The notes under the pieces were generated by a model that was given only the letters and a program-made list of their open reading frames with translations, ran no database searches and was not told the origin of the DNA. A DNA stretch of 64,000 bases from Vulcanimicrobiota bacterium (GTDB lineage: Bacteria > Vulcanimicrobiota > Xenobia > Xenobiales > JADMJV01), in contig JBFWNU010000001.1 in NCBI GenBank assembly GCA_050250895.1, positions 616,008 to 680,007 of the forward strand. The letters are read 5' to 3'. The position numbers and the translations under genes are program-made. Positions 39,722 through 48,977 of this stretch are shown in pieces (position 1 is the first letter of the stretch; each line of letters begins with the position of its first letter).

Positions 39722-40320
39722 CTTGACTCCTTTGGCAAGAATGCTTCGAGGGCCTTTCGCTCAAGCACCTCAACTCGCCCCCTCGAGAGCTTGAGCCAAC
39801 CAGCCCGATTCATCGCTCCCAGGGCCTTGGTCACACTCTCTCGGGTGGCGGCCACCTGGGCGGCCATCTCTTGATGAGTCAGCGCCAGAGGGTTCTCCGA
39901 GACGCTCCTGTCCAACAGCAAACGCGCCACCCGGTGCTTCACGCTTTCAAAGCCGAGCTGGGCTATCTGACGGGACAGGCGCCGCACCCGCTGGTTTTGA
40001 CGAAGCAACAGATCCTCTAGCAGAGCTGGTTGACCGCGGGCGATGCGTCGAAACTCTTCGGCGGCCAGACGGCGAACCGAACAGTCGGTTCTGGCCCTGA
40101 CCGTCGCCGAGTGAGGTCCCTCGTCAAAACTCGACATCTCGCCCAAAAGAGCGCCGGGCCCGACCGTCTTGAACACCACGACCTCACCGTCCGGGCTCTC
40201 TTCAAGCACCTCCAATTCGCCCTCCACCACAATCACGACCCCGCAGCAGGGGTCTTCTTGGTACCAAAGATAGGTCCCCGCCTCGATGTAAGCGGGATGA
40301 CCCATTTCTAGCCACTGCAA
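39718..40320 (-). CDS. Crp/Fnr family regulator
   Basis: GEMSSFD..PHSATV; LTHQEMAAQVAATRESVTKAL HTH. Confidence 0.9.
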   Translation of the reverse strand: MQWLEMGHPAYIEAGTYLWYQEDPCCGVVIVVEGELEVLEESPDGEVVVFKTVGPGALLGEMSSFDEGPHSATVRARTDCSVRRLAAEEFRRIARGQPALLEDLLLRQNQRVRRLSRQIAQLGFESVKHRVARLLLDRSVSENPLALTHQEMAAQVAATRESVTKALGAMNRAGWLKLSRGRVEVLERKALEAFLPKESR

Positions 40321-41210
40321 GGGTATCGCTCCTCCAATTCACGCCGCTGGATGGGGCTGAGATAACGAGCTGCGAAGCCGTCGCGACTAATACCCACCTC
40401 ACCTTGCATCACCCTGGAGGCGACCGCCGCCATGGCGTCACGATAGGCCAGGTTGGGCCAGTCAGGATAGCGCGGCCCTAACAGGGCGGGCAGGCCGGTG
40501 GCGATGGTTCGGCTGCCATTTTGGCTGCCGTCACCTTCGATATAGTGGTCCAGCACGGTCGCTTGGGCCACCCTATCGATGGCCTCAAAGAATCGCTCGG
40601 GAGCCTCCAGCGGCAACAGTGGCGAGACCGTCACCACTACCCTGAGCCCGCAGTCCCGCAACTGGCCGGCCGCCTCGAATCGAGCCGCCACCGGGCTGGC
40701 GTGAGCAGGCAGCCCTTCAAAGCGCTCGCGGTCGGTTTCGATACTCAGATGCACCCGCAACTGGCAACGTTGGGCCAGGCGAGCCAGCAGCTCGGCCTGC
40801 TCGGCCACGGCGGCCGAGTGGGTCTGCACCACCAGGGCGTCCGGAGGTTCGTCGAGCATAGCCTCGAGAACGCTCCGAGTAACGCCAAACTGGCGTTCTT
40901 GAGGTAGGAAAGGCTCGGTCGAGGAGGCCATGAAGATGGAAAAATCTCGACCCTGACGGCGGGCCCAGCGTCGCTCGGCCGGGGCCCGCTCAAGATACGA
41001 TTCGGCGGCGTTAAGACGAGCTTCCAGAAAGCTACCCCAGGGCTCGCCGCGAGTCAAGAAACGGTTGTGCGCCACATAGCAGCTCTGGCCGCACAGACTC
41101 TTGCCGAAAGAACAACCGCGATAGGGCTGGAGTGAATGCGAGGTCACCTCGCTGAGGTAACCGCTGGTACGGGTGAGAATCCGCGCCACACGGCCCTGGG
41201 CAACCCTCAT
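40308..41210 (-). CDS. Radical SAM protein, spore-photoproduct-lyase-like family
   Basis: SLQPYRGCSFGKSLCGQSCY, IFMASSTEPFLPQE, TRSVLE, SIETD, VSPLLP. Confidence 0.8.
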   Translation of the reverse strand: MRVAQGRVARILTRTSGYLSEVTSHSLQPYRGCSFGKSLCGQSCYVAHNRFLTRGEPWGSFLEARLNAAESYLERAPAERRWARRQGRDFSIFMASSTEPFLPQERQFGVTRSVLEAMLDEPPDALVVQTHSAAVAEQAELLARLAQRCQLRVHLSIETDRERFEGLPAHASPVAARFEAAGQLRDCGLRVVVTVSPLLPLEAPERFFEAIDRVAQATVLDHYIEGDGSQNGSRTIATGLPALLGPRYPDWPNLAYRDAMAAVASRVMQGEVGISRDGFAARYLSPIQRRELEERYPCSG

Positions 41211-43439: not shown

Positions 43440-44686
43440 ACCGTAACGTCCCAGCGCACCAGCTCGTGGTCGCTGCCCCCACCCTCGACCCTGTGCCGTC
43501 CCGAGGCCTGACTGCCGTGGCTGGTGTAAATCCGGTCGATCGAGTTGTCCGCATCGGGGTCGCTCCATCCCAGCGAGTCGGCTGAAGGATAGTGATGAAC
43601 GGGATTGTCCGGCAGCAGACCGCGCCAGCGAAAGTCGAGGTACCTTCCACCCGCCTTCGAATTGAAGTCACCCGCCACGATCGTGTGGTCGCCATAACCT
43701 TCGACGATATCTCCCAGGGTTTGATACTGGGTCACCCGGGCCTGTTGGTCGGCTTCGTCGCCGCCCGAGGTGAAGTGCGTACTGACGAAAGTCGCCTCTT
43801 GCCCACCGGCCTCGAAGCCCACCGCCAGAGCGGTGCGGTTCTCGTTGTCGGGGTCGTTGGCGCCGAGGTCGTGGCGACGCAGGCTGCCGGGCTCGATCTC
43901 GCCCTGGGCGTCGCGGCGCAACTGCGCCTCGGGACCCAGCAGCACGGCGTTGCCATAGGTGCCTGCGCCCGAATGGGCCAGGGACGAGCCAAAGACCACG
44001 GTGTAGTCGGTCTGCGCCCCGTCTTTTTCGATTTCGGCCGAGTAGACGGTGATGGGAGTGTCATTGCTGTCGTCAAAGGCTCGCCGGCCATTCTCGAGAT
44101 AGGGTTGACCGTGCTCGTCGTAACTCTCTTTGCTAACCACCAGGCTGGCACCGTTACTCTCATAGACGACGTGATCCGCGCCCTGGGCGACCCGCTCCAC
44201 CACCTGCTGCTCGCGGTGGTCGCCGAAGTCGGCCTCATACTGGGTGCGGTCATAGCGGACCGGGTCGTAGACGCGGTGGCCCTGCTCATCGACCACGGGT
44301 TGGCCGTGCTCGTCGAGACTGAACTTATCCACCGACTCAGCTTCGCTCCAGTTTGGCCCACTCTCGGCCCGAAAGACGTCCTTGAGGACCTCTTCATTGT
44401 AGTCCTGGCGGCCCGTGCGTTCCGCCCCCACGTCGACCTCTTGAAAAGCCACGACATCGAGACCCCCGCCGGTCACCTGCTCGGACACCTGCCGGGTAGT
44501 CTCGTCAAAGTGTTGGCGAGCCCCGGCGTTGCCGGCGCCCAGGTTGTAGGTGCCCACCTGGAGCCGGGCCGGCGGCGAGACCTCGGCCCGGTCGGCCGCA
44601 ACGGCTGCAGCGGGCCCCGGCGCCGGCTTGGGGTGTTTAGCCAGTCTGGTTTCGGCCCGGACCGGGCCAGCCTCTCGAATCAACAC
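43436..44686 (-). CDS. Endonuclease/exonuclease/phosphatase family protein with large insertion
   Basis: TYN, FQEVD, YGNAVL, STHF, AGDFN, IDRIY, SDH. Confidence 0.85.
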   Translation of the reverse strand: MLIREAGPVRAETRLAKHPKPAPGPAAAVAADRAEVSPPARLQVGTYNLGAGNAGARQHFDETTRQVSEQVTGGGLDVVAFQEVDVGAERTGRQDYNEEVLKDVFRAESGPNWSEAESVDKFSLDEHGQPVVDEQGHRVYDPVRYDRTQYEADFGDHREQQVVERVAQGADHVVYESNGASLVVSKESYDEHGQPYLENGRRAFDDSNDTPITVYSAEIEKDGAQTDYTVVFGSSLAHSGAGTYGNAVLLGPEAQLRRDAQGEIEPGSLRRHDLGANDPDNENRTALAVGFEAGGQEATFVSTHFTSGGDEADQQARVTQYQTLGDIVEGYGDHTIVAGDFNSKAGGRYLDFRWRGLLPDNPVHHYPSADSLGWSDPDADNSIDRIYTSHGSQASGRHRVEGGGSDHELVRWDVTV

Positions 44687-44857
44687 GCTTGCATTCTAAA
44701 GGCTCTGACCTGCCCAACGGCTGCCCAGATGGTGTCGACGTGAACAGCTCATTGCCGAAGCGTTAACTGGGGCGGGAAGAAGAGTGGGCGAGGGCGAAGG
44801 AATAAGATGTACGACTTGACGACGGGACTAGCCAAGTGATTCACAGGGGAGGTAGTT

Positions 44858-45886
44858 TTGAAGGTCTGCCTGGTTCTCACCCACCAATGCAATCTCGGTT
44901 GTAGCTACTGTTACGCGGGCGAAAAGTTCAAACGCACGATGAGCTACGAGTCGGGCCTCAAGAGTCTCGCTCTGGCTTTCTCGAAGGAAGGGCCTGTCGA
45001 AGTCTCGTTTTTTGGCGGCGAACCGATGATCGCCTTCGCTCAGATGGCCGCCCTCACCCGGGTGGCCCGCCGCTGGGCCGACCGCGCCGGTCGCCAACTG
45101 CGCTTCGCGGTCACCACCAATGCCACGATCCTCAACGAAAAGCACCTCAATTTCTTGCGCGACTACAACTTCTTTGTCGGCATTTCGGTGGACGGCGTCG
45201 AGGAAGAGCATGATCGCCATCGCCCCTTCGTGGGGGGACGAGGCTCCGGCGACCTGGTCTGGCGCAATCTCGAACGGGCCGCCCACTATCTCGACGATTT
45301 TCGGGTCTTGATGGTGGTCCGCCCCGACACCGTGGCCCGCCTGCCCGAAGCCATCGAGCGAATGTACCGCCTGGGCGTCTCGAAGGTTTCGCTCTTGCCC
45401 GAAACCGAAGCCGATTGGAGCGAGTCGCGCCATCTTCTCTCGGACGTCTACCAGCAACTGGCCCGTGTCTGCTACTTCTCGATGATGACCGACGAGCCCA
45501 TGTATATCAGCCCCTTCGCCGAACTGCATCCTCACCTTCGCAGCAACGGCAACGGCGGCGGTCGTGGTGGCTGCAACTTCGGCCGCGACGAGGTGGCCGT
45601 CTCGCCCGCCGGCAACTTCTACCCCTGCGCCCGTCTGGTCGGCCCCGATACTCGCCCCGAGGTGCGCATCGGCAATCTGGAGAACGGCTTTGACCTGGCC
45701 CGCATCGAAGAGCTCAACAGCTGTTCTGAGGCCAGCCTCTCCAAGTGCGGCAGCGGAGGCTGCAAGTGCCTGGCCCTGATGCCGGGCGATGTCGACTATC
45801 AGCTGGTCAACGTCAAGATGTTCACGGACGTCACCGGTGAGGCGTGCCGCGCCGCCGCAGCCTGCCTCGAAGAGGTGGCCGCGTGA
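44858..45886 (+). CDS. Radical SAM protein with SPASM/twitch-like C-terminal domain (putative peptide/protein maturase)
   Basis: CNLGCSYC, FFGGEP, TTNAT, ISVDG, GC..G...YPC, IGNL, CGSGGCKC; GGAGGT RBS. Confidence 0.9.
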   Translation: MKVCLVLTHQCNLGCSYCYAGEKFKRTMSYESGLKSLALAFSKEGPVEVSFFGGEPMIAFAQMAALTRVARRWADRAGRQLRFAVTTNATILNEKHLNFLRDYNFFVGISVDGVEEEHDRHRPFVGGRGSGDLVWRNLERAAHYLDDFRVLMVVRPDTVARLPEAIERMYRLGVSKVSLLPETEADWSESRHLLSDVYQQLARVCYFSMMTDEPMYISPFAELHPHLRSNGNGGGRGGCNFGRDEVAVSPAGNFYPCARLVGPDTRPEVRIGNLENGFDLARIEELNSCSEASLSKCGSGGCKCLALMPGDVDYQLVNVKMFTDVTGEACRAAAACLEEVAA

Positions 45887-46209
45887 GCGAAGACAAAATC
45901 AAAAGGCGCCGCTTCCTGGCTGACGTGCTATTCGCTGGCGGCGGGCTGACCGCGGCTGCTTTCCTGGCCAAGGCCGGCTTTGACCGCGACCAACCCGACC
46001 AACTGCCCGGAGCGGTGGCCGTGCCCAACGACGGCCAAACGCCGACCTGCGAAGAGACCCCGAGCTGTGCGCCCACCCCCGACGATCCCAGCCTGGGCGG
46101 CGAACCGATGCCCCCCGAGCCCCCCATGCCCGGCCAAATGGCCCTGCCCCAGCAACCGCCCGAGGTCATCCCCGATGGTGACGTAGCCGCCCCCAGGGAG
46201 TGCAAATGA
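45883..46209 (+). CDS. Putative rSAM substrate 1 (twin-arginine leader plus G-centred repeats)
   Basis: GTGA overlap with rSAM; SEDKIKRRRFLADVLFAGGGLTAAAFLAKA; LPGAVAVP, LGGEPMPP, MPGQMALP, PDGDVAAP. Confidence 0.85.
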   Translation: MSEDKIKRRRFLADVLFAGGGLTAAAFLAKAGFDRDQPDQLPGAVAVPNDGQTPTCEETPSCAPTPDDPSLGGEPMPPEPPMPGQMALPQQPPEVIPDGDVAAPRECK

Positions 46210-46559
46210 GCGACGACAAGATCAAGAGACGCCGATTTCTAGCAGATGTGCTCTTCGCTGGCGGCGGACTGACGGCAGCGGCTTTTCTGGCCAAAGCCGG
46301 CCTGGACCGTCACGAGCCCAACCCCGGCGTAGCCGGCGACATGAAAATGCCCCAACCCGCCAACACTCCGGTGGCCTCGCCCACCTGCGAAGACCCCGAG
46401 ATCGAGGGCGACGTAGCCCTGCCCGAACCCGAGCAGACCCCCTGCGAAAAGCCGCCCCTCACGCCCCAAGACGAGCCCAACGTGGCCGGCGGCATGCGCC
46501 CGCCCCAACCCCCACCCGAGGCACTGCCCGGCCGAGTCGCCGTGCCCCGTGACCAATGA
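46206..46559 (+). CDS. Putative rSAM substrate 2
   Basis: ATGA overlap; same leader; VAGDMKMP, IEGDVALP, VAGGMRPP, LPGRVAVP. Confidence 0.85.
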   Translation: MSDDKIKRRRFLADVLFAGGGLTAAAFLAKAGLDRHEPNPGVAGDMKMPQPANTPVASPTCEDPEIEGDVALPEPEQTPCEKPPLTPQDEPNVAGGMRPPQPPPEALPGRVAVPRDQ

Positions 46560-46891
46560 TGAGCAAAGGCAAGACTCGGCGCCGACGCTTTCTCGCCGAT
46601 CTGCTCTTTGCCGGCGGGACACTCACTGCCGTGGCCTTTCTGGCCAAGGTCGGGGGGACCGTCGACCCACCCACCCCGGCGGGACTGGCCGCAAAGCCCG
46701 CCGCCTCGCCGTCCTTCCAAGAGTGCCCCGAGACTCCAGCCCTGGAGACGCGGGAACCCATCCCGGGCCCCGGAGACCAGGGCACCATCAAAGTTGGCGG
46801 CATGGTCAAGCTGCCGCGCCAAACTGGCAAGGAAGTTCTTCCTGCTAATATCACAAGCAAGCCGGTGACAAGAAGCTATGAGCGAAGATAA
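46556..46891 (+). CDS. Putative rSAM substrate 3 (divergent)
   Basis: ATGA overlap; KTRRRRFLADLLFAGGTLTAVAFLAKV; ECPETP, VGGMVKLP. Confidence 0.8.
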   Translation: MMSKGKTRRRRFLADLLFAGGTLTAVAFLAKVGGTVDPPTPAGLAAKPAASPSFQECPETPALETREPIPGPGDQGTIKVGGMVKLPRQTGKEVLPANITSKPVTRSYERR

Positions 46892-47207
46892 GATCAAAAG
46901 GCGCAGATTTCTGGCCGACGTGCTGTTCGCGGGCGGTGGCCTGACGGCCGCAGCCTTTCTGGCCAAAGCCCAGTTCGGCCAACCCGACCCGCCCCTCGTC
47001 AAGCCATCGCCGCGGGAAACCCCCACTTGCGCCCACCCCCCCGAGCCAGACCTCCGGGTCAAAGGCGAGGTGGCGCCACCCCAACCAGCACCGCCAACCC
47101 AGCCCGAGCCGGCTGTGCCCGGCAAAATGAAAGCCCCCAACCCCAGGCCGATCGAGCTTCAGCTCGAGGGCGAGGTAGAGATGCCTGAACCGAGGGAGTG
47201 CAAATGA
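46878..47207 (+). CDS. Putative rSAM substrate 4
   Basis: Same leader; VKGEVAPP, VPGKMKAP, LEGEVEMP; ends PRECK. Confidence 0.85.
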   Translation: MSEDKIKRRRFLADVLFAGGGLTAAAFLAKAQFGQPDPPLVKPSPRETPTCAHPPEPDLRVKGEVAPPQPAPPTQPEPAVPGKMKAPNPRPIELQLEGEVEMPEPRECK

Positions 47208-47527
47208 GCGAAGACAAGATCAAACGCCGCCGATTTCTAGCCGACATCCTGTTCGCCGGTGGAGGCCTGACGGCCGCGGCCTTTCTGGCCAAAGCCCAGT
47301 TCGGCCAAACCTCGCCGACCGACGTGCCTCAAACCTGCGAGACTCCCACCAGCTGCCAATCGCCCGACATCGACGGCAACGCCGTCCCCCCCGTCGAACC
47401 CCACCCCGCCGGCGCCGTCGCGCCCCCTCAGCCCGAAGAGCCCCAACTCGAGGGCAAGGTCGCCCAACCCGTCCAGATCAAAGGCGACGTGGCCGTGCCC
47501 GATGACAGGCTAGAGGGACGACGGTAG
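47204..47527 (+). CDS. Putative rSAM substrate 5
   Basis: ATGA overlap; same leader; IDGNAVPP, PAGAVAPP, LEGKVAQP, IKGDVAVP. Confidence 0.85.
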   Translation: MSEDKIKRRRFLADILFAGGGLTAAAFLAKAQFGQTSPTDVPQTCETPTSCQSPDIDGNAVPPVEPHPAGAVAPPQPEEPQLEGKVAQPVQIKGDVAVPDDRLEGRR

Positions 47528-47561
47528 ACGGTAGACGGTAGACGGTAGACGGTAGACGGTA
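47520..47561 (+). repeat. Tandem heptamer (GACGGTA)x6
   Basis: Six perfect copies; the first supplies the TAG stop of substrate 5. Confidence 0.95.
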
Positions 47562-47694
47562 GAGAGCCGCATCTCGCTGCCGGCTCGCTGCCGGCTCTCT
47601 CCTGTTTCCCTGACGGCGCCCGGGCCCGCCCACTCGAAGCTGGTGAGTTCCCCTCTCGACGGCGAAGCCGCCCAGAATGACGACGCGAAGCGTC

Positions 47695-47996
47695 GAGTAC
47701 CTCAAAACTCGAGGTGAGCCCAGCGAACCTCGCTCCCCTCTCGCTGGCGAGCGCAAGCGAAGCCAGCGCTCCCCTCTCCGGGCGCAGCCCGGCTCCTCTC
47801 TCGCGAGCAAAGCGAGCGCTCCCTTCTCGACGGCGAAGCCGTCGCGAGTACCTCAAAACTCGAGGTGAGCCCAGCGAACCTCGCTCCCTTCTCGCTGGCG
47901 AGCGCAAGCGAAGCCAGCGCTCCCCTCTCCGGGCGCAGCCCGGCTCCTCTCTCGCGAGCAAAGCGAGCGCTCCCTTCTCGACGGCGAAGCCGTCGC
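47695..47996. repeat. 151-bp direct tandem duplication of a multi-hairpin element
   Basis: 47695-47845 vs 47846-47996, one mismatch seen; hairpins separated by GCTCCCCTCTC-type spacers. Confidence 0.9.
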
Positions 47997-47999
47997 CCG

Positions 48000-48977
48000 C
48001 TAGGCGGTGGCTACGAAGGAGGGAGCGCGGCCGAAGCTCTTGCGATAGCGATCGGCGAACTCATCACGGGTGTAGCTGTGATTCTGGGTGCCGTACTTCT
48101 CCACCACGTAAGCGGCGGCCACGCTGCCCATGCGTCCACATTCGGCCAACTCGCAGCCCGCGACCAGGCCAGCTACGAATCCGCCGCGATAGGCGTCGCC
48201 CGCGCCGGTGGGGTCGACCGCTTTCGAGATCACGCAGGGCGGGACCTCGATGGCCGTCTCGCCTTTGCGCAGAATGCGACTGCCTTTCTCGCCCAGGGTC
48301 ACCACCAGCATGTCCATCTGGTCGAGCAATTGCTCGGTGGTGCGACCGGTCTTCTCTTGGAAGACCGAGAACTCGTAGTCGTTGAGAATCATAGCGTGGG
48401 CGCCCAGAGCGCCTTCGAGCAAGGGTCCGCCCTCCATGGCCGTGACCTGGAAGGAGGGGTCGTAAATCAGCGGGATGCCGGCCTCTTTCGCCTCGCGGCA
48501 GTGACGCAGCATGGCTTCAGGATCGTCAGGGGCGACGATCAGCAGGGCCGGCGAGGGGCCGGCCGAGGCTTTGACACTGATGTTCTTGGAGTGGGGCATG
48601 GCGCCCACATAGAAGCCGGTAATCTGGTTGTTGGCCCGGTCGGTGGTGATGTAGCAGGTGGCCGTGATCTCGTCTTCGACTCGCAGGATGGCCGAGGTGT
48701 CGACCCCGTTCTTCTCGAGGAAGTCGGCGTAGGTGTCGAAATCGTTGCCGGCCGCCGCGATAATGCGGGGGTGGCGACCCAGAAGGGACAGGGTGTAGGC
48801 GATGTTGGCTGCACAGCCGCCCCGCTGCTTGGTGACCTTGTCCACCAGAAAAGAGATGTTGATCATGTGCAGCTTCTCGGGCAGGATGTGCTCCTTGAAG
48901 TAGCCGGGAAAGGACATGATGTTGTCAAAGGCCAGCGAGCCTGCTACCAGGATCTGGCCCTCCATCGTTTTGGCCAC
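48000..48977 (-). CDS. PfkB-family nucleoside/carbohydrate kinase (adenosine kinase-like)
   Basis: GSLAFD, GGCAANIA, DPSFQ, NDYE, VDPTGAGDAYRGG; AGGAGG before GTG 48977. Confidence 0.9.
   Translation of the reverse strand: MAKTMEGQILVAGSLAFDNIMSFPGYFKEHILPEKLHMINISFLVDKVTKQRGGCAANIAYTLSLLGRHPRIIAAAGNDFDTYADFLEKNGVDTSAILRVEDEITATCYITTDRANNQITGFYVGAMPHSKNISVKASAGPSPALLIVAPDDPEAMLRHCREAKEAGIPLIYDPSFQVTAMEGGPLLEGALGAHAMILNDYEFSVFQEKTGRTTEQLLDQMDMLVVTLGEKGSRILRKGETAIEVPPCVISKAVDPTGAGDAYRGGFVAGLVAGCELAECGRMGSVAAAYVVEKYGTQNHSYTRDEFADRYRKSFGRAPSFVATA

What the first reader, a model, noticed from the sequence alone, without database searches (positions are those of the whole stretch)
44858..47527. 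Candidate undescribed RiPP-like system: radical SAM/SPASM enzyme plus five twin-arginine-leader, multi-core precursors
Seen: the rSAM gene (CNLGCSYC, Cys-rich C-terminus) is followed by five 107-117 aa paralogues joined by GTGA/ATGA overlaps (14-nt overlap between 3 and 4). Each has a conserved ~31-aa leader and a divergent Pro-rich body containing about 16 copies in total of hydrophobic-x-G-x-hydrophobic-x-x-P (LPGAVAVP, IEGDVALP, VKGEVAPP, LEGKVAQP, IKGDVAVP...). Known: SPASM rSAM enzymes modify adjacently encoded peptides (sactipeptides, ranthipeptides, spliceases, epimerases), and conserved leader plus variable core is the precursor hallmark. Inference: the enzyme modifies the invariant Gly or a neighbour in each repeat before export. 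No protease, dedicated transporter or aromatic core residues are present, so it fits no class I recognise.
Basis: partly seen in the sequence, partly recalled or inferred. Interest (0 to 1): 0.92.

Follow-up and report, generated by a model that had tools for sequence, protein, structure and literature searches.

The report
Radical-SAM enzyme with export-tagged repeat proteins
One iron-sulfur "radical SAM" enzyme gene is followed by five copies of a small, proline-rich protein that carries an export-signal-like head and a repeated glycine-centred motif; this enzyme-substrate pair recurs in related uncultured bacteria and appears to be undescribed.

Summary
One operon (44858-47527, + strand) encodes a 342-aa radical SAM enzyme and five overlapping 107-117-aa paralogues. 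Each has a near-invariant RRRFLADxLFAGG head. Each also has a Pro-rich body, with 17-18 copies in all of (E)P-x-h-x-G-[DE]-[VM]-A-x-P.

The pairing is conserved. A leader-bearing gene follows the enzyme gene in 10 of 10 close public loci and in 17 of 20 phylum loci. Enzyme and small protein share 17 of 18 positive genomes among 401.

A complex model passes its controls (0.85 against 0.00). It docks the head on the enzyme surface and one Gly motif in the active site.

The enzyme has no RRE domain and a cut-down SPASM domain. Its nearest curated family is PapB, 186.6 bits against a cut-off of 340.

The chemistry is open: a Cys-independent change at each motif (about 40%) or one thioether (about 30%). 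Export by Tat is inferred.

I found no family model and no paper for it. The scan has noted Tat-leader radical-SAM systems with Cys-repeat substrates on other DNA, but none listed with this body.

The parts
44846..44852 (+). Shine-Dalgarno-like GGGGAGG, 5 nt before the TTG start of the enzyme gene
   Evidence: read from the sequence
44858..45886 (+). Radical SAM maturase, 342 aa. It has no RRE domain; CxxxCxxC lies at residues 11-18. Its SPASM domain is reduced, with invariant C239, C257, C297, C302 and C304.
   Evidence: Pfam Radical_SAM scores 68.5 bits (cut-off 29.5) and SPASM 15.2 (cut-off 21.5). The best NCBIfam family is PapB, 186.6 bits against a cut-off of 340. The invariant Cys come from a 23-sequence alignment. 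The deletion relative to full-SPASM relatives shows. The AF2 model has pLDDT 87.8. Foldseek ranks CteB first (TMq 0.78), then anSME (0.74).
45883..46209 (+). Small protein g1, 108 aa, GTG start overlapping the enzyme's stop (GTGA). Leader in codons 1-31, 4 Gly motifs, Cys 56, 62 and 107.
46206..46559 (+). Small protein g2, 117 aa, ATGA overlap. 4 Gly motifs, Cys 61 and 80.
46556..46891 (+). Small protein g3, 111 aa, ATGA overlap (an alternative ATG lies at 46559). It is the most divergent copy, with 3 motifs by the loose rule and Cys 57.
46878..47207 (+). Small protein g4, 109 aa, 14-nt overlap with g3. 3 Gly motifs, Cys 51 and 108. It was the partner chain in the complex model.
47204..47527 (+). 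Small protein g5, 107 aa, ATGA overlap. 4 Gly motifs, Cys 45 and 51.
46878..46970 (+). Leader of g4 (MSEDKIKRRRFLADVLFAGGGLTAAAFLAKA), given as the example of the five leaders. The others are 45883-45975, 46206-46298, 46559-46651 and 47204-47296. It is Tat-like (RRxFL, hydrophobic stretch, AKA). The model docks it on enzyme residues 163-173 and 200-223.
   Evidence: In 163 cluster representatives the RRxFLADxLFxGG positions are 93-100% conserved.
47154..47195 (+). g4 residues 93-106 (ELQLEGEVEMPEPR), the last Gly motif. In the complex model it touches the top of the enzyme barrel and the region of C239, C257 and C297-C304.
   Evidence: interface list. This is a model, not a measurement.

Best explanation
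The six genes are one operon for a protein-modification system.

The enzyme is a radical SAM maturase of the peptide-cross-linking lineage. It has lost the usual leader-binding RRE domain and part of its SPASM domain. The five small proteins are its substrates.

Each substrate has two parts.
1. A near-invariant N-terminal segment, RRxFLADxLFxGG plus a hydrophobic stretch. I read it as having two jobs: it is the leader by which the enzyme holds the substrate, and it is a twin-arginine-type export signal or signal-anchor.
2. A disordered Pro-rich body carrying three or four copies of (E)P-x-h-x-G-[DE]-[VM]-A-x-P and, usually, one Cys.

Proposed course. In the cytoplasm the leader helix docks on two outer helices of the enzyme. 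The Gly motifs are threaded one at a time over the SAM cluster. A hydrogen atom is abstracted within the G-[DE]-[VM] segment. The modified protein then leaves by the Tat pathway. General signal peptidase or membrane retention deals with the leader. That would explain why no protease or transporter gene is present.

Chemistry, my commitment. Most likely (about 40%) every motif is modified without a partner residue, and epimerisation of the +1/+2 residue is the simplest case. Next (about 30%) is a single thioether from the lone Cys to a motif residue.

Shown: gene structure, family-wide conservation, pairing, motif statistics and enzyme family.
Predicted by a model: leader docking and the motif in the active site.
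Inferred: order of events, Tat export, fate of the leader, chemistry.
For: Pairing:
- A leader-bearing small gene directly follows the enzyme gene in 10 of 10 genome-contig loci with at least 45% identical enzyme, in 1 to 7 copies.
- The same holds in 17 of 20 phylum loci that keep downstream DNA.
- Among 401 genomes of the phylum, 18 have the enzyme (E <= 1e-40) and 18 have the small-protein profile (E <= 1e-5); 17 are the same genomes.
- 40 of 66 small-protein matches lie next to an enzyme match.

Binding:
- The complex model scores 0.85 (runs 0.87, 0.85, 0.84) against 0.00 for the best of 3 controls. That mark was reached by 58 of 80 solved complexes and 2 of 110 mismatched pairs. The runs share at least 64% of contacts, and partner pLDDT is at least 50.
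- Leader residues 1-28 touch enzyme residues 163-173 and 200-223. Residues 93-106, a Gly motif, touch the barrel top and the auxiliary-cluster Cys region.

Leader under selection:
- 132 synonymous against 42 non-synonymous codon differences among the paralogues.
- RRxFLADxLFxGG is 93-100% conserved in 163 cluster representatives, while the bodies diverge.

Motif as the functional unit:
- 327 observed against 56 +/- 7 expected.
- 439 of 741 body Gly sit in the motif.
- 32 of 163 members have no Cys at all. These include Cys-free copies inside enzyme-adjacent arrays that are kept between genomes.
- Aromatic residues make up about 1.3% of the bodies.

Enzyme:
- It starts directly with the radical SAM core, so it has no RRE.
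- It keeps five invariant C-terminal Cys.
- Relative to more distant homologues with the full CX2CX5CX3C motif it has an 8-residue deletion.

Export:
- TatC is present in the genome at 213.9 bits, over the cut-off.
- The neighbouring genes are unrelated and include no protease or transporter.
- More distant enzyme relatives (30-36% identity) sit beside proteins with canonical RRxF[LM]K signals and lipoboxes, and two of these carry the same motif above chance: L039 has 5 against 1.69 expected (9 of 1000 shuffles reach it), and L041 has 4 against 1.08 (20 of 1000).
Against: - No modification has been measured. The site and the chemistry rest on one structure prediction and on sequence statistics.
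- The enzyme's closest curated families are all Cys-thioether synthases (PapB, QhpD, SCIFF maturase, CcpM), and its best solved relative is CteB. This favours the thioether rival.
- Cys is not random. Exactly one Cys occurs in 102 of 163 bodies, with mean 1.02 and variance 0.50.
- The Pfam TAT_signal model scores only 7.6-7.8 bits against a cut-off of 22.7. That model finds just one site in the whole 9.5-Mb genome, so its failure is weak evidence.
- An AxA-type cleavage site is not conserved in all family members. The seven L015 copies have [STA]R[YFW] after the hydrophobic stretch. Some or all copies may therefore stay membrane-anchored.
- 26 of 66 family matches are not next to the enzyme gene.
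- Three enzyme loci (L124, L128, L129) have no recognisable small gene beside them.
- Of the four distant systems tested, L045 is not above chance (296 of 1000 shuffles reach it), and L036 shares only an L-x-G-D-I core.
- The complex calibration held no riding ligands and did not use user alignments, so its counts apply only roughly.
Confidence: 0.55

Rival explanations
1. Ranthipeptide- or sactipeptide-like reading. The enzyme makes one thioether per protein, from the single conserved Cys to a carbon of a nearby residue, for instance the Asp/Glu after the motif Gly. Its relatives PapB, QhpD and CteB work this way. The other Gly motifs are docking elements or functional parts of the mature protein, not modification sites.
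For: - PapB is the best NCBIfam family for this enzyme and for five relatives (153-221 bits). It is followed by QhpD, the SCIFF maturase, CcpM and the CXXX-repeat family.
- CteB is the best solved relative by sequence (E 2.6e-24) and by fold (TMq 0.78).
- 131 of 163 bodies have at least one Cys and 102 have exactly one.
- Cys lies more often than expected at -6/-7 (14 and 10 against 4.7 and 4.2) and at +7 to +9 from a motif Gly.
- D or E takes the +1 position in 39-43% of motifs, against about 12% background.
- Passages read in PMC12715619 say that PapB needs little beyond a Cys-Xn-Asp/Glu motif and can act without a leader.
- Earlier scan notes describe Tat-leader systems with Cys-Asp repeats and PapB-like enzymes in other genomes (not tested here).
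Against: - 32 of 163 family members have no Cys. Some of these are conserved inside enzyme-adjacent arrays.
- One Cys cannot account for three to five conserved motifs per protein.
- The Cys offset enrichment is partly trivial, because Cys is excluded from the constrained motif positions.
- In the distant systems L039 and L036 the only Cys is at a lipobox-like position at the end of the signal. A lipoprotein would need that Cys free.
- This clade has lost two of the Cys that bind the second auxiliary cluster in the full-SPASM relatives.
- Cys51 and Cys108 of g4 are not in the confident interface of the model. The tool warns that unnamed residues are merely uncertain.
Confidence: 0.3
2. Same enzyme-substrate pair, but the N-terminal segment is an uncleaved signal-anchor. 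The products would be membrane-tethered, Pro-rich periplasmic or cell-surface proteins, that is structural or spacer proteins modified by the enzyme. They would not be released peptides. This rival concerns the fate of the product, not the pairing.
For: - A 19-residue hydrophobic stretch follows the KRRR cluster.
- In many family members an Arg plus an aromatic residue follows it instead of an AxA site, for example the seven L015 copies.
- Distant relatives carry lipoboxes, so they too would be membrane-tethered.
- All 150 listed family representatives are small stand-alone proteins of 69-194 aa.
- No longer fused forms were found, which is weak evidence.
Against: - The window's own copies end the hydrophobic stretch with A-K-A or A-K-V, which fits signal peptidase I.
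- The stretch is rich in Gly, Ala and Thr and holds an Asp, which is more like a Tat h-region than a stable transmembrane helix (reading from general knowledge).
- Nothing tested here tells cleavage from retention.
Confidence: 0.35
3. The small proteins are not substrates. They are exported Pro-rich proteins that merely share an operon with a radical SAM enzyme acting on something else.
For: - 26 of 66 family matches lie away from the enzyme gene.
- Three such copies are in this genome: L008, L009 and L010.
- Three enzyme loci lack an adjacent small gene.
Against: - Translationally coupled overlaps link the enzyme gene to g1 and each small gene to the next.
- Adjacency holds in 10 of 10 and 17 of 20 loci.
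- 17 genomes are shared between the 18 with the enzyme and the 18 with the small protein. The two exceptions are a gene cut at a contig end and a 65%-complete genome.
- The complex model scores 0.85 against 0.00.
- All near families of the enzyme are peptide or protein maturases.
Confidence: 0.07
4. A classical secreted antimicrobial RiPP. The leader is removed by a dedicated protease and the core is exported by a dedicated transporter, both encoded elsewhere in the genome. The twin-arginine look of the leader is a coincidence.
For: - A conserved leader with variable multi-copy cores is the usual precursor pattern (general knowledge).
- The Pfam Tat model is not met.
Against: - No protease or transporter lies in the operon or among the neighbouring genes: Crp-type regulator, FIST, L,D-transpeptidase, EEP nuclease/phosphatase, PfkB kinase and DUF4340.
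- None appeared among the ORFs printed for L039, L036 and L033 (whose output was cut). The ORFs of the close loci were screened only for leader-bearing small genes, so their other neighbours were not examined.
- Bodies of 70-90 Pro-rich residues are unlike known antimicrobial cores.
- RRxFL is invariant, and the nearest language-model neighbours are Tat-signal proteins (scores 0.83-0.85; a lead only).
- The distant relatives carry canonical Tat-plus-lipobox signals.
Confidence: 0.08

Closest known systems
PapB/PapA (freyrasin) ranthipeptide system; NCBIfam NF047865
   Same: PapB is the best-scoring curated family for the enzyme over its whole length (186.6 bits, profile positions 5-306 of 330). 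It is also the best for five relatives. Both have a multi-motif substrate encoded next to the enzyme. Passages read in PMC12715619 say that PapB needs little beyond its local motif.
   Different: The score is far below the family cut-off of 340. PapB has an N-terminal RRE at residues 1-86 (PMC12715619, passages read), whereas this enzyme starts at the radical SAM core. The substrate has no Cys-X3-Asp repeats: it has one Cys and three or four Gly-centred motifs. The leader looks like a Tat signal. The SPASM domain is reduced.
CteB/CteA (SCIFF, thermocellin), PDB 5WGG/5WHY
   Same: It is the closest solved structure by sequence (E 2.6e-24) and by fold (TMq 0.78). It is also a radical SAM core plus a C-terminal Fe-S domain acting on an adjacent small gene product.
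   Different: CteB aligns from its residue 99, after an N-terminal domain that is absent here. The SCIFF family model scores 115.3 bits against a cut-off of 425. The substrates here are Cys-poor, Pro-rich and four to five times longer than a SCIFF peptide (the SCIFF length is recalled, not tested).
Anaerobic sulfatase-maturating enzyme (anSME) acting on exported sulfatases, PDB 4K36-4K39
   Same: It is the second-best fold match (TMq 0.74). Like this enzyme it has no RRE. By general knowledge, not tested here, it recognises a short local motif of a protein that is modified in the cytoplasm and then exported.
   Different: TIGR03942 scores 84.7 bits against a cut-off of 349. No C/S-x-P/A-x-R sulfatase motif or sulfatase domain is present, and the substrates here are small repeat proteins.
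Repeat-motif radical SAM/SPASM systems: ChlB and other three-residue cyclophane synthases, GrrM/OscB, and the TvgB/TigE cyclopropylglycine synthases
   Same: In these systems one enzyme processes several copies of a short motif in one precursor. ChlB (PDB 9GM3/9GMC) is among the top fold matches at TMq 0.71-0.72. PMC12912966 cites it as a multiple cyclophane synthase (passages read). The poly-cyclopropylglycine systems act on Val/Ile-Gly repeats (PMC9062424 and PMC10878394; titles and starts of abstracts seen in the listing only).
   Different: Cyclophane formation needs an aromatic residue in each motif, and here W+Y+F make up about 1.3% of the bodies. GrrM scores 60.3 bits against a cut-off of 310. 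TigE is a weak fold match (TMq 0.54). The +2 position is Val in only 37-65% of motifs and Met, Pro or Ala in the rest, which does not fit an obligatory Val cyclopropanation.
EpeE/YydG epipeptide epimerase, PDB 8AI1-8AI6
   Same: It is a radical SAM enzyme with a cut-down C-terminal Fe-S domain that changes aliphatic residues without a partner residue. This is the kind of chemistry I rank first. The statement about EpeE's domain and chemistry is from general knowledge plus the listing of PMC13012085.
   Different: It is only a distant fold match (TMq 0.49-0.51) and is not among the 25 best NCBIfam families. This is an analogy of mechanism, not of membership.
CrpC/CrpA protein thioether system of methanogens (PMC13692751)
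   Same: It is a precedent for a SPASM radical SAM enzyme modifying a protein-sized neighbour rather than a short peptide (abstract read).
   Different: CrpC has a predicted RRE and three clusters, and its substrate is Cys-rich (abstract and section titles). Here the enzyme has no RRE, the SPASM is reduced, and the substrate is Cys-poor with an export-signal-like leader.

Membership tests
Radical SAM superfamily (PF04055) | CxxxCxxC cluster motif and Pfam score over the gathering cut-off | tested here: met
   CNLGCSYC lies at residues 11-18. PF04055 scores 68.5 bits against a cut-off of 29.5.
SPASM domain (PF13186) | Seven-Cys motif CX9-15GX4C ... CX2CX5CX3C ... C for two auxiliary clusters, and Pfam score over the cut-off | tested here: not met
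   PF13186 scores 15.2 bits against a cut-off of 21.5. The first half (C239-x12-G-x4-C257) is present. The second half is reduced to C297-x4-C302-x-C304 by an 8-residue deletion relative to L039, L036 and L025, which keep CX2CX5CX3C.
PapB family ranthipeptide maturase (NF047865) | Whole-protein score at or above the curated cut-off (340 bits) | tested here: not met
   186.6 bits. Relatives score 153-221 bits.
PapB family ranthipeptide maturase (NF047865) | N-terminal RiPP recognition element (PapB residues 1-86, per PMC12715619) | tested here: not met
   The protein begins with the radical SAM core. Families that have an N-terminal domain align only from their positions 79-99.
PapB family ranthipeptide maturase (NF047865) | Substrate with repeated Cys-X3-Asp (Cys-Xn-Asp/Glu) units | tested here: not met
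   The window bodies hold 1-3 Cys each. Family-wide, 102 of 163 bodies have exactly one Cys and 32 have none.
Ranthipeptide / sactipeptide class (by product) | Cys sulfur-to-carbon thioether in the mature product | not testable with these tools
   This needs mass spectrometry of the modified protein.
SCIFF maturase (TIGR03974) | Score at or above 425 bits and a six-Cys-in-45 substrate | tested here: not met
   115.3 bits. The substrates are Cys-poor.
Anaerobic sulfatase maturase (TIGR03942) | Score at or above 349.45 bits and a sulfatase substrate with C/S-x-P/A-x-R | tested here: not met
   84.7 bits. No Pfam or NCBIfam family, sulfatase included, hit the small proteins at E <= 0.1.
Three-residue cyclophane (triceptide) systems | An aromatic residue in each repeated motif | tested here: not met
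   W+Y+F make up about 1.3% of the bodies. 21 of 50 bodies have no aromatic residue. GrrM scores 60.3 bits against 310, and FxsB 50.3 against 370.
Twin-arginine (Tat) signal peptide | RRxFL(K) motif, moderately hydrophobic h-region and a small-x-small cleavage site | tested here: met
   All five copies read K-R-R-R-F-L, then ADxLFAGGxLTAxAFLA, then A-K-A or A-K-V. RR and F are 100% conserved in 163 representatives. The cleavage site is not conserved in all family members.
Twin-arginine (Tat) signal peptide | Pfam TAT_signal (PF10518) score over the cut-off | tested here: not met
   7.6-7.8 bits against a cut-off of 22.7. The model finds only one site over its cut-off in the whole 9.5-Mb genome, so it is insensitive here.
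Twin-arginine (Tat) signal peptide | Tat machinery present in the organism | tested here: met
   TatC (PF00902) scores 213.9 bits, over its cut-off, at G000:C6:327186-327809.
Twin-arginine (Tat) signal peptide | Tat-dependent export of the protein | not testable with these tools
   This needs reporter fusions in tat-proficient and tat-deficient laboratory strains.
Bacterial lipoprotein | Lipobox [LVI][ASTVI][GAS]C at the end of the signal | tested here: not met
   In the window's five proteins the first Cys lies 14 to 30 residues after the hydrophobic stretch. Distant relatives L036 (LLGC), L041 (VAGC) and L025 (LAAC) do have one.

The most novel reading that the evidence does not exclude
This is a new class of radical-SAM-modified exported proteins. 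A twin-arginine export signal has been taken over as the enzyme-recognition leader, so general Tat export and signal peptidase replace the dedicated protease and transporter of classical RiPP pathways. An RRE-less enzyme with a single auxiliary cluster installs a Cys-independent, aromatic-independent modification at every Gly-centred decapeptide repeat. That modification could be epimerisation or another C-H functionalisation of the G-[DE]-[VM] segment.
Probability: 0.33. Interest if true: 0.85.

Novelty: new variant of a known kind. Interest (0 to 1): 0.72.

Why it matters
Radical SAM/SPASM maturases are a main source of new peptide chemistry, but almost all characterised ones act on Cys or aromatic residues and hold their substrate through an RRE domain. 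Here three things stand apart.

- The substrate family is defined by a Gly-centred, Pro-flanked repeat with at most one Cys.
- The enzyme has no RRE. It is predicted to hold a helix formed by what looks like a Tat signal.
- The pathway seems to need no dedicated protease or exporter.

If confirmed, it would give a compact two-gene system for modifying and exporting proteins. It would also be a defined test case for RRE-independent leader recognition, and possibly a new modification.

The family is also a marker of one lineage of large-genome Eremiobacterota. It was found in 18 of 401 sampled genomes of the phylum, all in four families. Looser counterparts occur beside Tat lipoproteins in Myxococcota and Kiritimatiellia. 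It therefore bears on how uncultured soil and sludge bacteria build their envelope or secretome.

Tried and rejected
These include the roughly 50%-identical group partly labelled Phycisphaerales. I used the search for related loci and the genome search instead, as the tool message advised.

The longer-forms search found no fused version of the small protein. The tool itself calls this weak evidence.

No Pfam, NCBIfam or other library family fits the small proteins. One weak NCBIfam hit to g3 (CU044_5270 family, 16.7 bits against a cut-off of 100) was disregarded.

The ESM Atlas gave only sub-0.9 neighbours (Tat-signal proteins at 0.83-0.85). Its structure rows are all below TM 0.5 on a model with pLDDT 0.56. 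I treat these as leads, not evidence.

The Cys-to-motif spacing test gave only modest enrichment, partly explained by the exclusion of Cys from constrained positions. I do not rest a ring size on it.

A simple promoter and terminator scan of 44500-48100 gave nothing useful. It found one promoter-like site inside g3/g4 and two minus-strand terminator-like sites, at or below shuffle expectation.

Sequencing runs:
- No run held half or more of the words of the stretch; the largest share was 0.09.
- Laid contigs of one RNA library (X3) cover 44822-45228 and 45518-45966. One 180-nt piece has 1 mismatch, and one 449-nt piece crosses the enzyme/g1 junction.
- These are contigs of an RNA library that may hold DNA, and they come partly from a 92-94% identical relative.
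- I therefore do not claim transcription, habitat or co-transcription from them. Uncovered parts mean nothing.

Four literature searches listed no paper that joins a twin-arginine or Tat signal with a radical SAM RiPP leader, and none on such a system in Eremiobacterota. In the listed rows the terms 'twin-arginine', 'Tat signal' and 'Eremiobacterota' had 0 occurrences. This covers the open-access library only. No supplementary file was opened.

A phylogenetic placement against characterised enzymes (an EFI-type network) was not done, because no sequences of characterised enzymes were available to me except as HMM and PDB scores.

The coordinates of the models were not available to scripts. I could not measure distances from motif atoms to SAM, or decide which Cys bind the auxiliary cluster.

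Full report
WHAT IS THERE

The + strand from 44858 to 47527 holds six tightly packed genes.

The first gene (44858-45886) starts at TTG, five bases after GGGGAGG. It encodes a 342-aa radical SAM protein with CNLGCSYC at residues 11-18.

Five small genes follow:
- g1, 45883-46209
- g2, 46206-46559
- g3, 46556-46891
- g4, 46878-47207
- g5, 47204-47527

They are joined by GTGA or ATGA overlaps and, between g3 and g4, by a 14-base overlap. Their products are 108, 117, 111, 109 and 107 aa.

All five begin MS(E/D)DKIKRRRFLAD(V/I/L)LFAGGxLTAxAFLAK(A/V). After residue 31 they are only 23-38% identical.

In the leader codons the ten paralogue pairs differ by 132 synonymous against 42 non-synonymous codon changes. 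The peptide itself is under selection; the likeness is not left over from a recent duplication.

The flanking genes are unrelated and include no protease or transporter. They encode:
- a Crp-type regulator
- a weak radical-SAM-like ORF
- a FIST protein
- an L,D-transpeptidase
- an EEP-family protein
- a PfkB kinase
- a DUF4340 protein

THE REPEAT IS REAL

The five bodies hold 17 (strict pattern) or 18 (looser rule) Gly-centred motifs.
- In 50 family members taken from loci, the strict pattern G.[VMILAYF]..P occurs 80 times, against 15.9 +/- 3.7 in shuffles (maximum 28 of 1000).
- In 163 cluster representatives it occurs 327 times, against 56 +/- 7 (maximum 79 of 300).
- A pair scan without any preset motif gives G-P(+5), G-M(+2), G-V(+2), L-G(+2), E-G(+5) and P-G(+4) as the strongest couplings.

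The unit is (E)P-x-[VLI]-x-G-[DEK]-[VM]-[AV]-x-P, and 439 of 741 body Gly lie in it. The bodies are 25% Pro and about 1.3% aromatic.

The window bodies hold 1-3 Cys each. Family-wide, 102 of 163 bodies have exactly one, 32 have none, 22 have two and 7 have three. The mean is 1.02 and the variance 0.50, which is more regular than chance.

THE PAIR IS CONSERVED

Homologues named by their sources come from Candidatus Eremiobacteraeota / Vulcanimicrobiota / Xenobia. The window lies in a 9.5-Mb genome of 17 contigs.

In all 10 genome-contig loci whose enzyme is at least 45% identical, 1 to 7 small genes with the same leader follow the enzyme gene directly.

In a sample of 401 genomes of the phylum:
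- 18 have the enzyme at E <= 1e-40.
- 18 match a profile of the small proteins at E <= 1e-5.
- 17 genomes are in both sets.
- The two exceptions are an enzyme gene cut at a contig end (G040) and a 65%-complete genome (G106).
- All positive genomes belong to four families of large genomes. None of the 297 sampled genomes of the largest family has either gene.

These genomes are kin, so the counts are not independent trials.

Of the 22 enzyme loci from that search, 20 keep DNA downstream of the enzyme gene, and 17 of those have a leader-bearing small gene. L124, L128 and L129 have none that I could recognise.

Of 66 small-protein matches, 40 lie next to an enzyme match and 26 lie elsewhere. Three of the latter are in this genome: L008, L009 and L010. 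Some orphans are conserved single genes in their own synteny, such as L140-L142.

It is met at the level of the locus but not of the genome.

The family has 252 clusters at E <= 1e-3 in 1.84 billion representatives. All 150 listed are 69-194 aa. No longer fused form was found, which is weak evidence.

THE ENZYME

Pfam sees the radical SAM core at 68.5 bits and a sub-threshold SPASM domain at 15.2 bits against a cut-off of 21.5.

Among NCBIfam models the best is the PapB ranthipeptide maturase family, at 186.6 bits over profile positions 5-306 of 330, against a cut-off of 340. Next come:
- the nif11-type maturase
- CcpM
- QhpD
- the SCIFF maturase

All are far below their cut-offs.

Families that carry an N-terminal recognition domain align only from their positions 79-99. 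This enzyme therefore has no RRE. PapB itself has one at residues 1-86 (PMC12715619, passages read).

The best solved relative is CteB, by sequence (E 2.6e-24) and by fold. The AF2 model has pLDDT 87.8. Foldseek gives TMq 0.78 for CteB, 0.74 for anSME, 0.71-0.72 for ChlB and about 0.50 for EpeE.

In 23 homologues the invariant Cys are C11, C15 and C18 plus C239, C257, C297, C302 and C304.

More distant relatives (L039, L036, L025; 30-36% identity) keep the full CX2CX5CX3C block. The window's clade has an 8-residue deletion that leaves C297-x4-C302-x-C304. I infer, but have not shown, that the second auxiliary cluster is lost or rebuilt.

DOES THE ENZYME HOLD THE SMALL PROTEIN?

I ran a complex prediction of the enzyme (alignment of 23), SAM, two 4Fe-4S clusters and g4 (alignment of 24).
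- The three runs scored 0.87, 0.85 and 0.84, median 0.85.
- The best of three controls scored 0.00.
- That mark was reached by 58 of 80 solved complexes and 2 of 110 mismatched pairs.
- The runs share at least 64% of contacts, and the partner's pLDDT is at least 50.
- The tool notes that its calibration had no riding ligands and did not use user alignments.

The confident interface has two parts.
- Leader residues 1, 5-6, 8-10, 12-13, 16-17, 19, 21 and 28 lie against enzyme residues 163-173 and 200-223, on two outer helices.
- Residues 93-106 (ELQLEGEVEMPEPR, the last Gly motif) lie against the ends of the barrel strands (2, 4, 48-52, 82-86, 106-108, 147-151, 178-181). They also lie against the region of C239, C257 and C297-C304.

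This supports a leader-plus-core reading with the Gly motif at the active site. It is the model's confidence, not a measurement.

IS THE LEADER A TAT SIGNAL?

For:
- RRxFL is followed by a Gly/Ala/Thr-rich hydrophobic stretch and by A-K-A.
- RR and F are invariant in 163 representatives.
- TatC is present.
- The nearest language-model neighbours are Tat-signal proteins, though below the score at which such hits count.
- Among 38 loci with more distant enzymes, 7 have a neighbour with an RRx[FLIVM] signal.
- Several of these neighbours have a lipobox: L036, L041 and L025.

Against:
- Pfam TAT_signal scores only 7.6-7.8 bits against a cut-off of 22.7. That model finds one site in the entire genome, so it is insensitive here.
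- The cleavage site is not conserved in all members.

The leader is conserved far beyond what export needs: ADxLFxGG is 93-99% conserved. That fits a second role as the enzyme's handle, as the model suggests.

DISTANT COUNTERPARTS

Four distant neighbours were tested.
- L039 (Kiritimatiellia): 5 motifs against 1.69 expected; 9 of 1000 shuffles reach that.
- L041 (Myxococcales): 4 against 1.08; 20 of 1000 shuffles reach it.
- L045: not above chance (296 of 1000).
- L036: repeats a different unit that shares only L-x-G-D-I.

L025, L035 and L048 have Tat lipoproteins of another, apparently globular kind. The wider link between this enzyme lineage and Tat-type proteins looks real. The wider reach of the Gly motif is only partly shown.

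MECHANISM

The pairing, the leader and the motif are well supported. The chemistry is not.

For a Cys-independent change at each motif:
- the dominance and multiplicity of the motif
- the Cys-free members kept inside arrays
- the lack of aromatic partners
- the lipobox-only Cys of L039 and L036
- the cut-down Fe-S domain
- the docking pose

For a single thioether:
- the enzyme's relatives are all Cys-directed
- the one-Cys regularity
- the acidic residue after the motif Gly
- a modest excess of Cys at -6/-7 and at +7 to +9 from motif Gly

I rank the first at about 40%, the second at about 30%, and anything else or nothing at about 30%. Each reading leaves one feature unexplained: the Cys in the first, the extra motifs in the second.

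COMPARISON AND NOVELTY

It works like a leader-guided radical SAM maturation of a multi-core precursor. It is not a member of the PapB, SCIFF, anSME, cyclophane or epipeptide families by their own criteria (see the membership table).

No library model fits the substrates. Four literature searches found no description.

Earlier notes of this scan describe Tat-leader radical-SAM systems with Cys-repeat substrates in other genomes (e1-4425621, e1-969956 and others). I did not test them. They suggest that this is one branch of a wider, still unnamed set of systems that modify a protein first and export it by Tat afterwards.

This branch is distinguished by its Cys-poor, Gly-centred repeats. I class it as a new variant of a known kind, with an interest of 0.72.

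Noticed in passing
window 47520-47563: A perfect tandem array of (GACGGTA) x 6.3 overlaps the stop codon of g5. In laid metagenome contigs the bin 47512-47615 reaches a summed depth of 805, against about 10 for the genes (run X1). Many contigs with loose ends start or stop there. The heptamer array therefore seems to be a multi-copy element in that community.
   Followed up: partly
window 47694-47996: A 151-bp unit is duplicated in tandem at 99% match. It contains 25-bp sub-repeats rich in GCGAAGC-type short hairpins, and it lies between the operon and the convergent PfkB kinase gene.
   Followed up: no
L008 1474-1851 (-), L009 1495-1785 (-), L010 1381-1851 (+) (own genome, contigs C4, C6, C1): Three divergent extra members of the small-protein family lie far from the enzyme gene. 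They have an RR[RE]FLA[DN]LLF leader, a Pro-rich body and Gly motifs such as VRGRVRMP and VDGGVSVP.
   Followed up: partly
L139 / L116 (G054:C85:15909-18043): In one relative the enzyme gene is followed by nine tandem small genes. This is the largest array seen.
   Followed up: no
L025 4359-4979 and 6023-6661; L035 264-1241; L048 4773-5327: Enzyme relatives at 34-39% identity in Myxococcota-type MAGs sit beside Tat-signal lipoproteins of about 150 aa. These appear to be globular, sharing a segment like (V/Y)RLPGEG...YL, and they lack the Pro-rich repeats. They may be a sister system.
   Followed up: no
window 40311-41180 (-): A second, weak radical-SAM-like ORF lies 3.7 kb upstream on the other strand (PF04055 at 20.1 bits, below the cut-off of 29.5). 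It sits next to a Crp-type regulator and a FIST protein.
   Followed up: no
L012, L014, L016 (records titled uncultured Burkholderiales) and L017 (titled Selenomonadaceae): Contigs carrying this cassette, with enzymes 49-77% identical to the window's, bear taxon labels far from Eremiobacterota. This may reflect binning or labelling problems in those MAGs, or transfer of the cassette.
   Followed up: no
window 44822-45228 and 45518-45966: Contigs of one wastewater RNA library cover parts of the enzyme gene and the enzyme/g1 junction. One piece is nearly identical (1 mismatch in 180 nt). The others come from a relative about 92-94% identical. This does not show transcription.
   Followed up: partly
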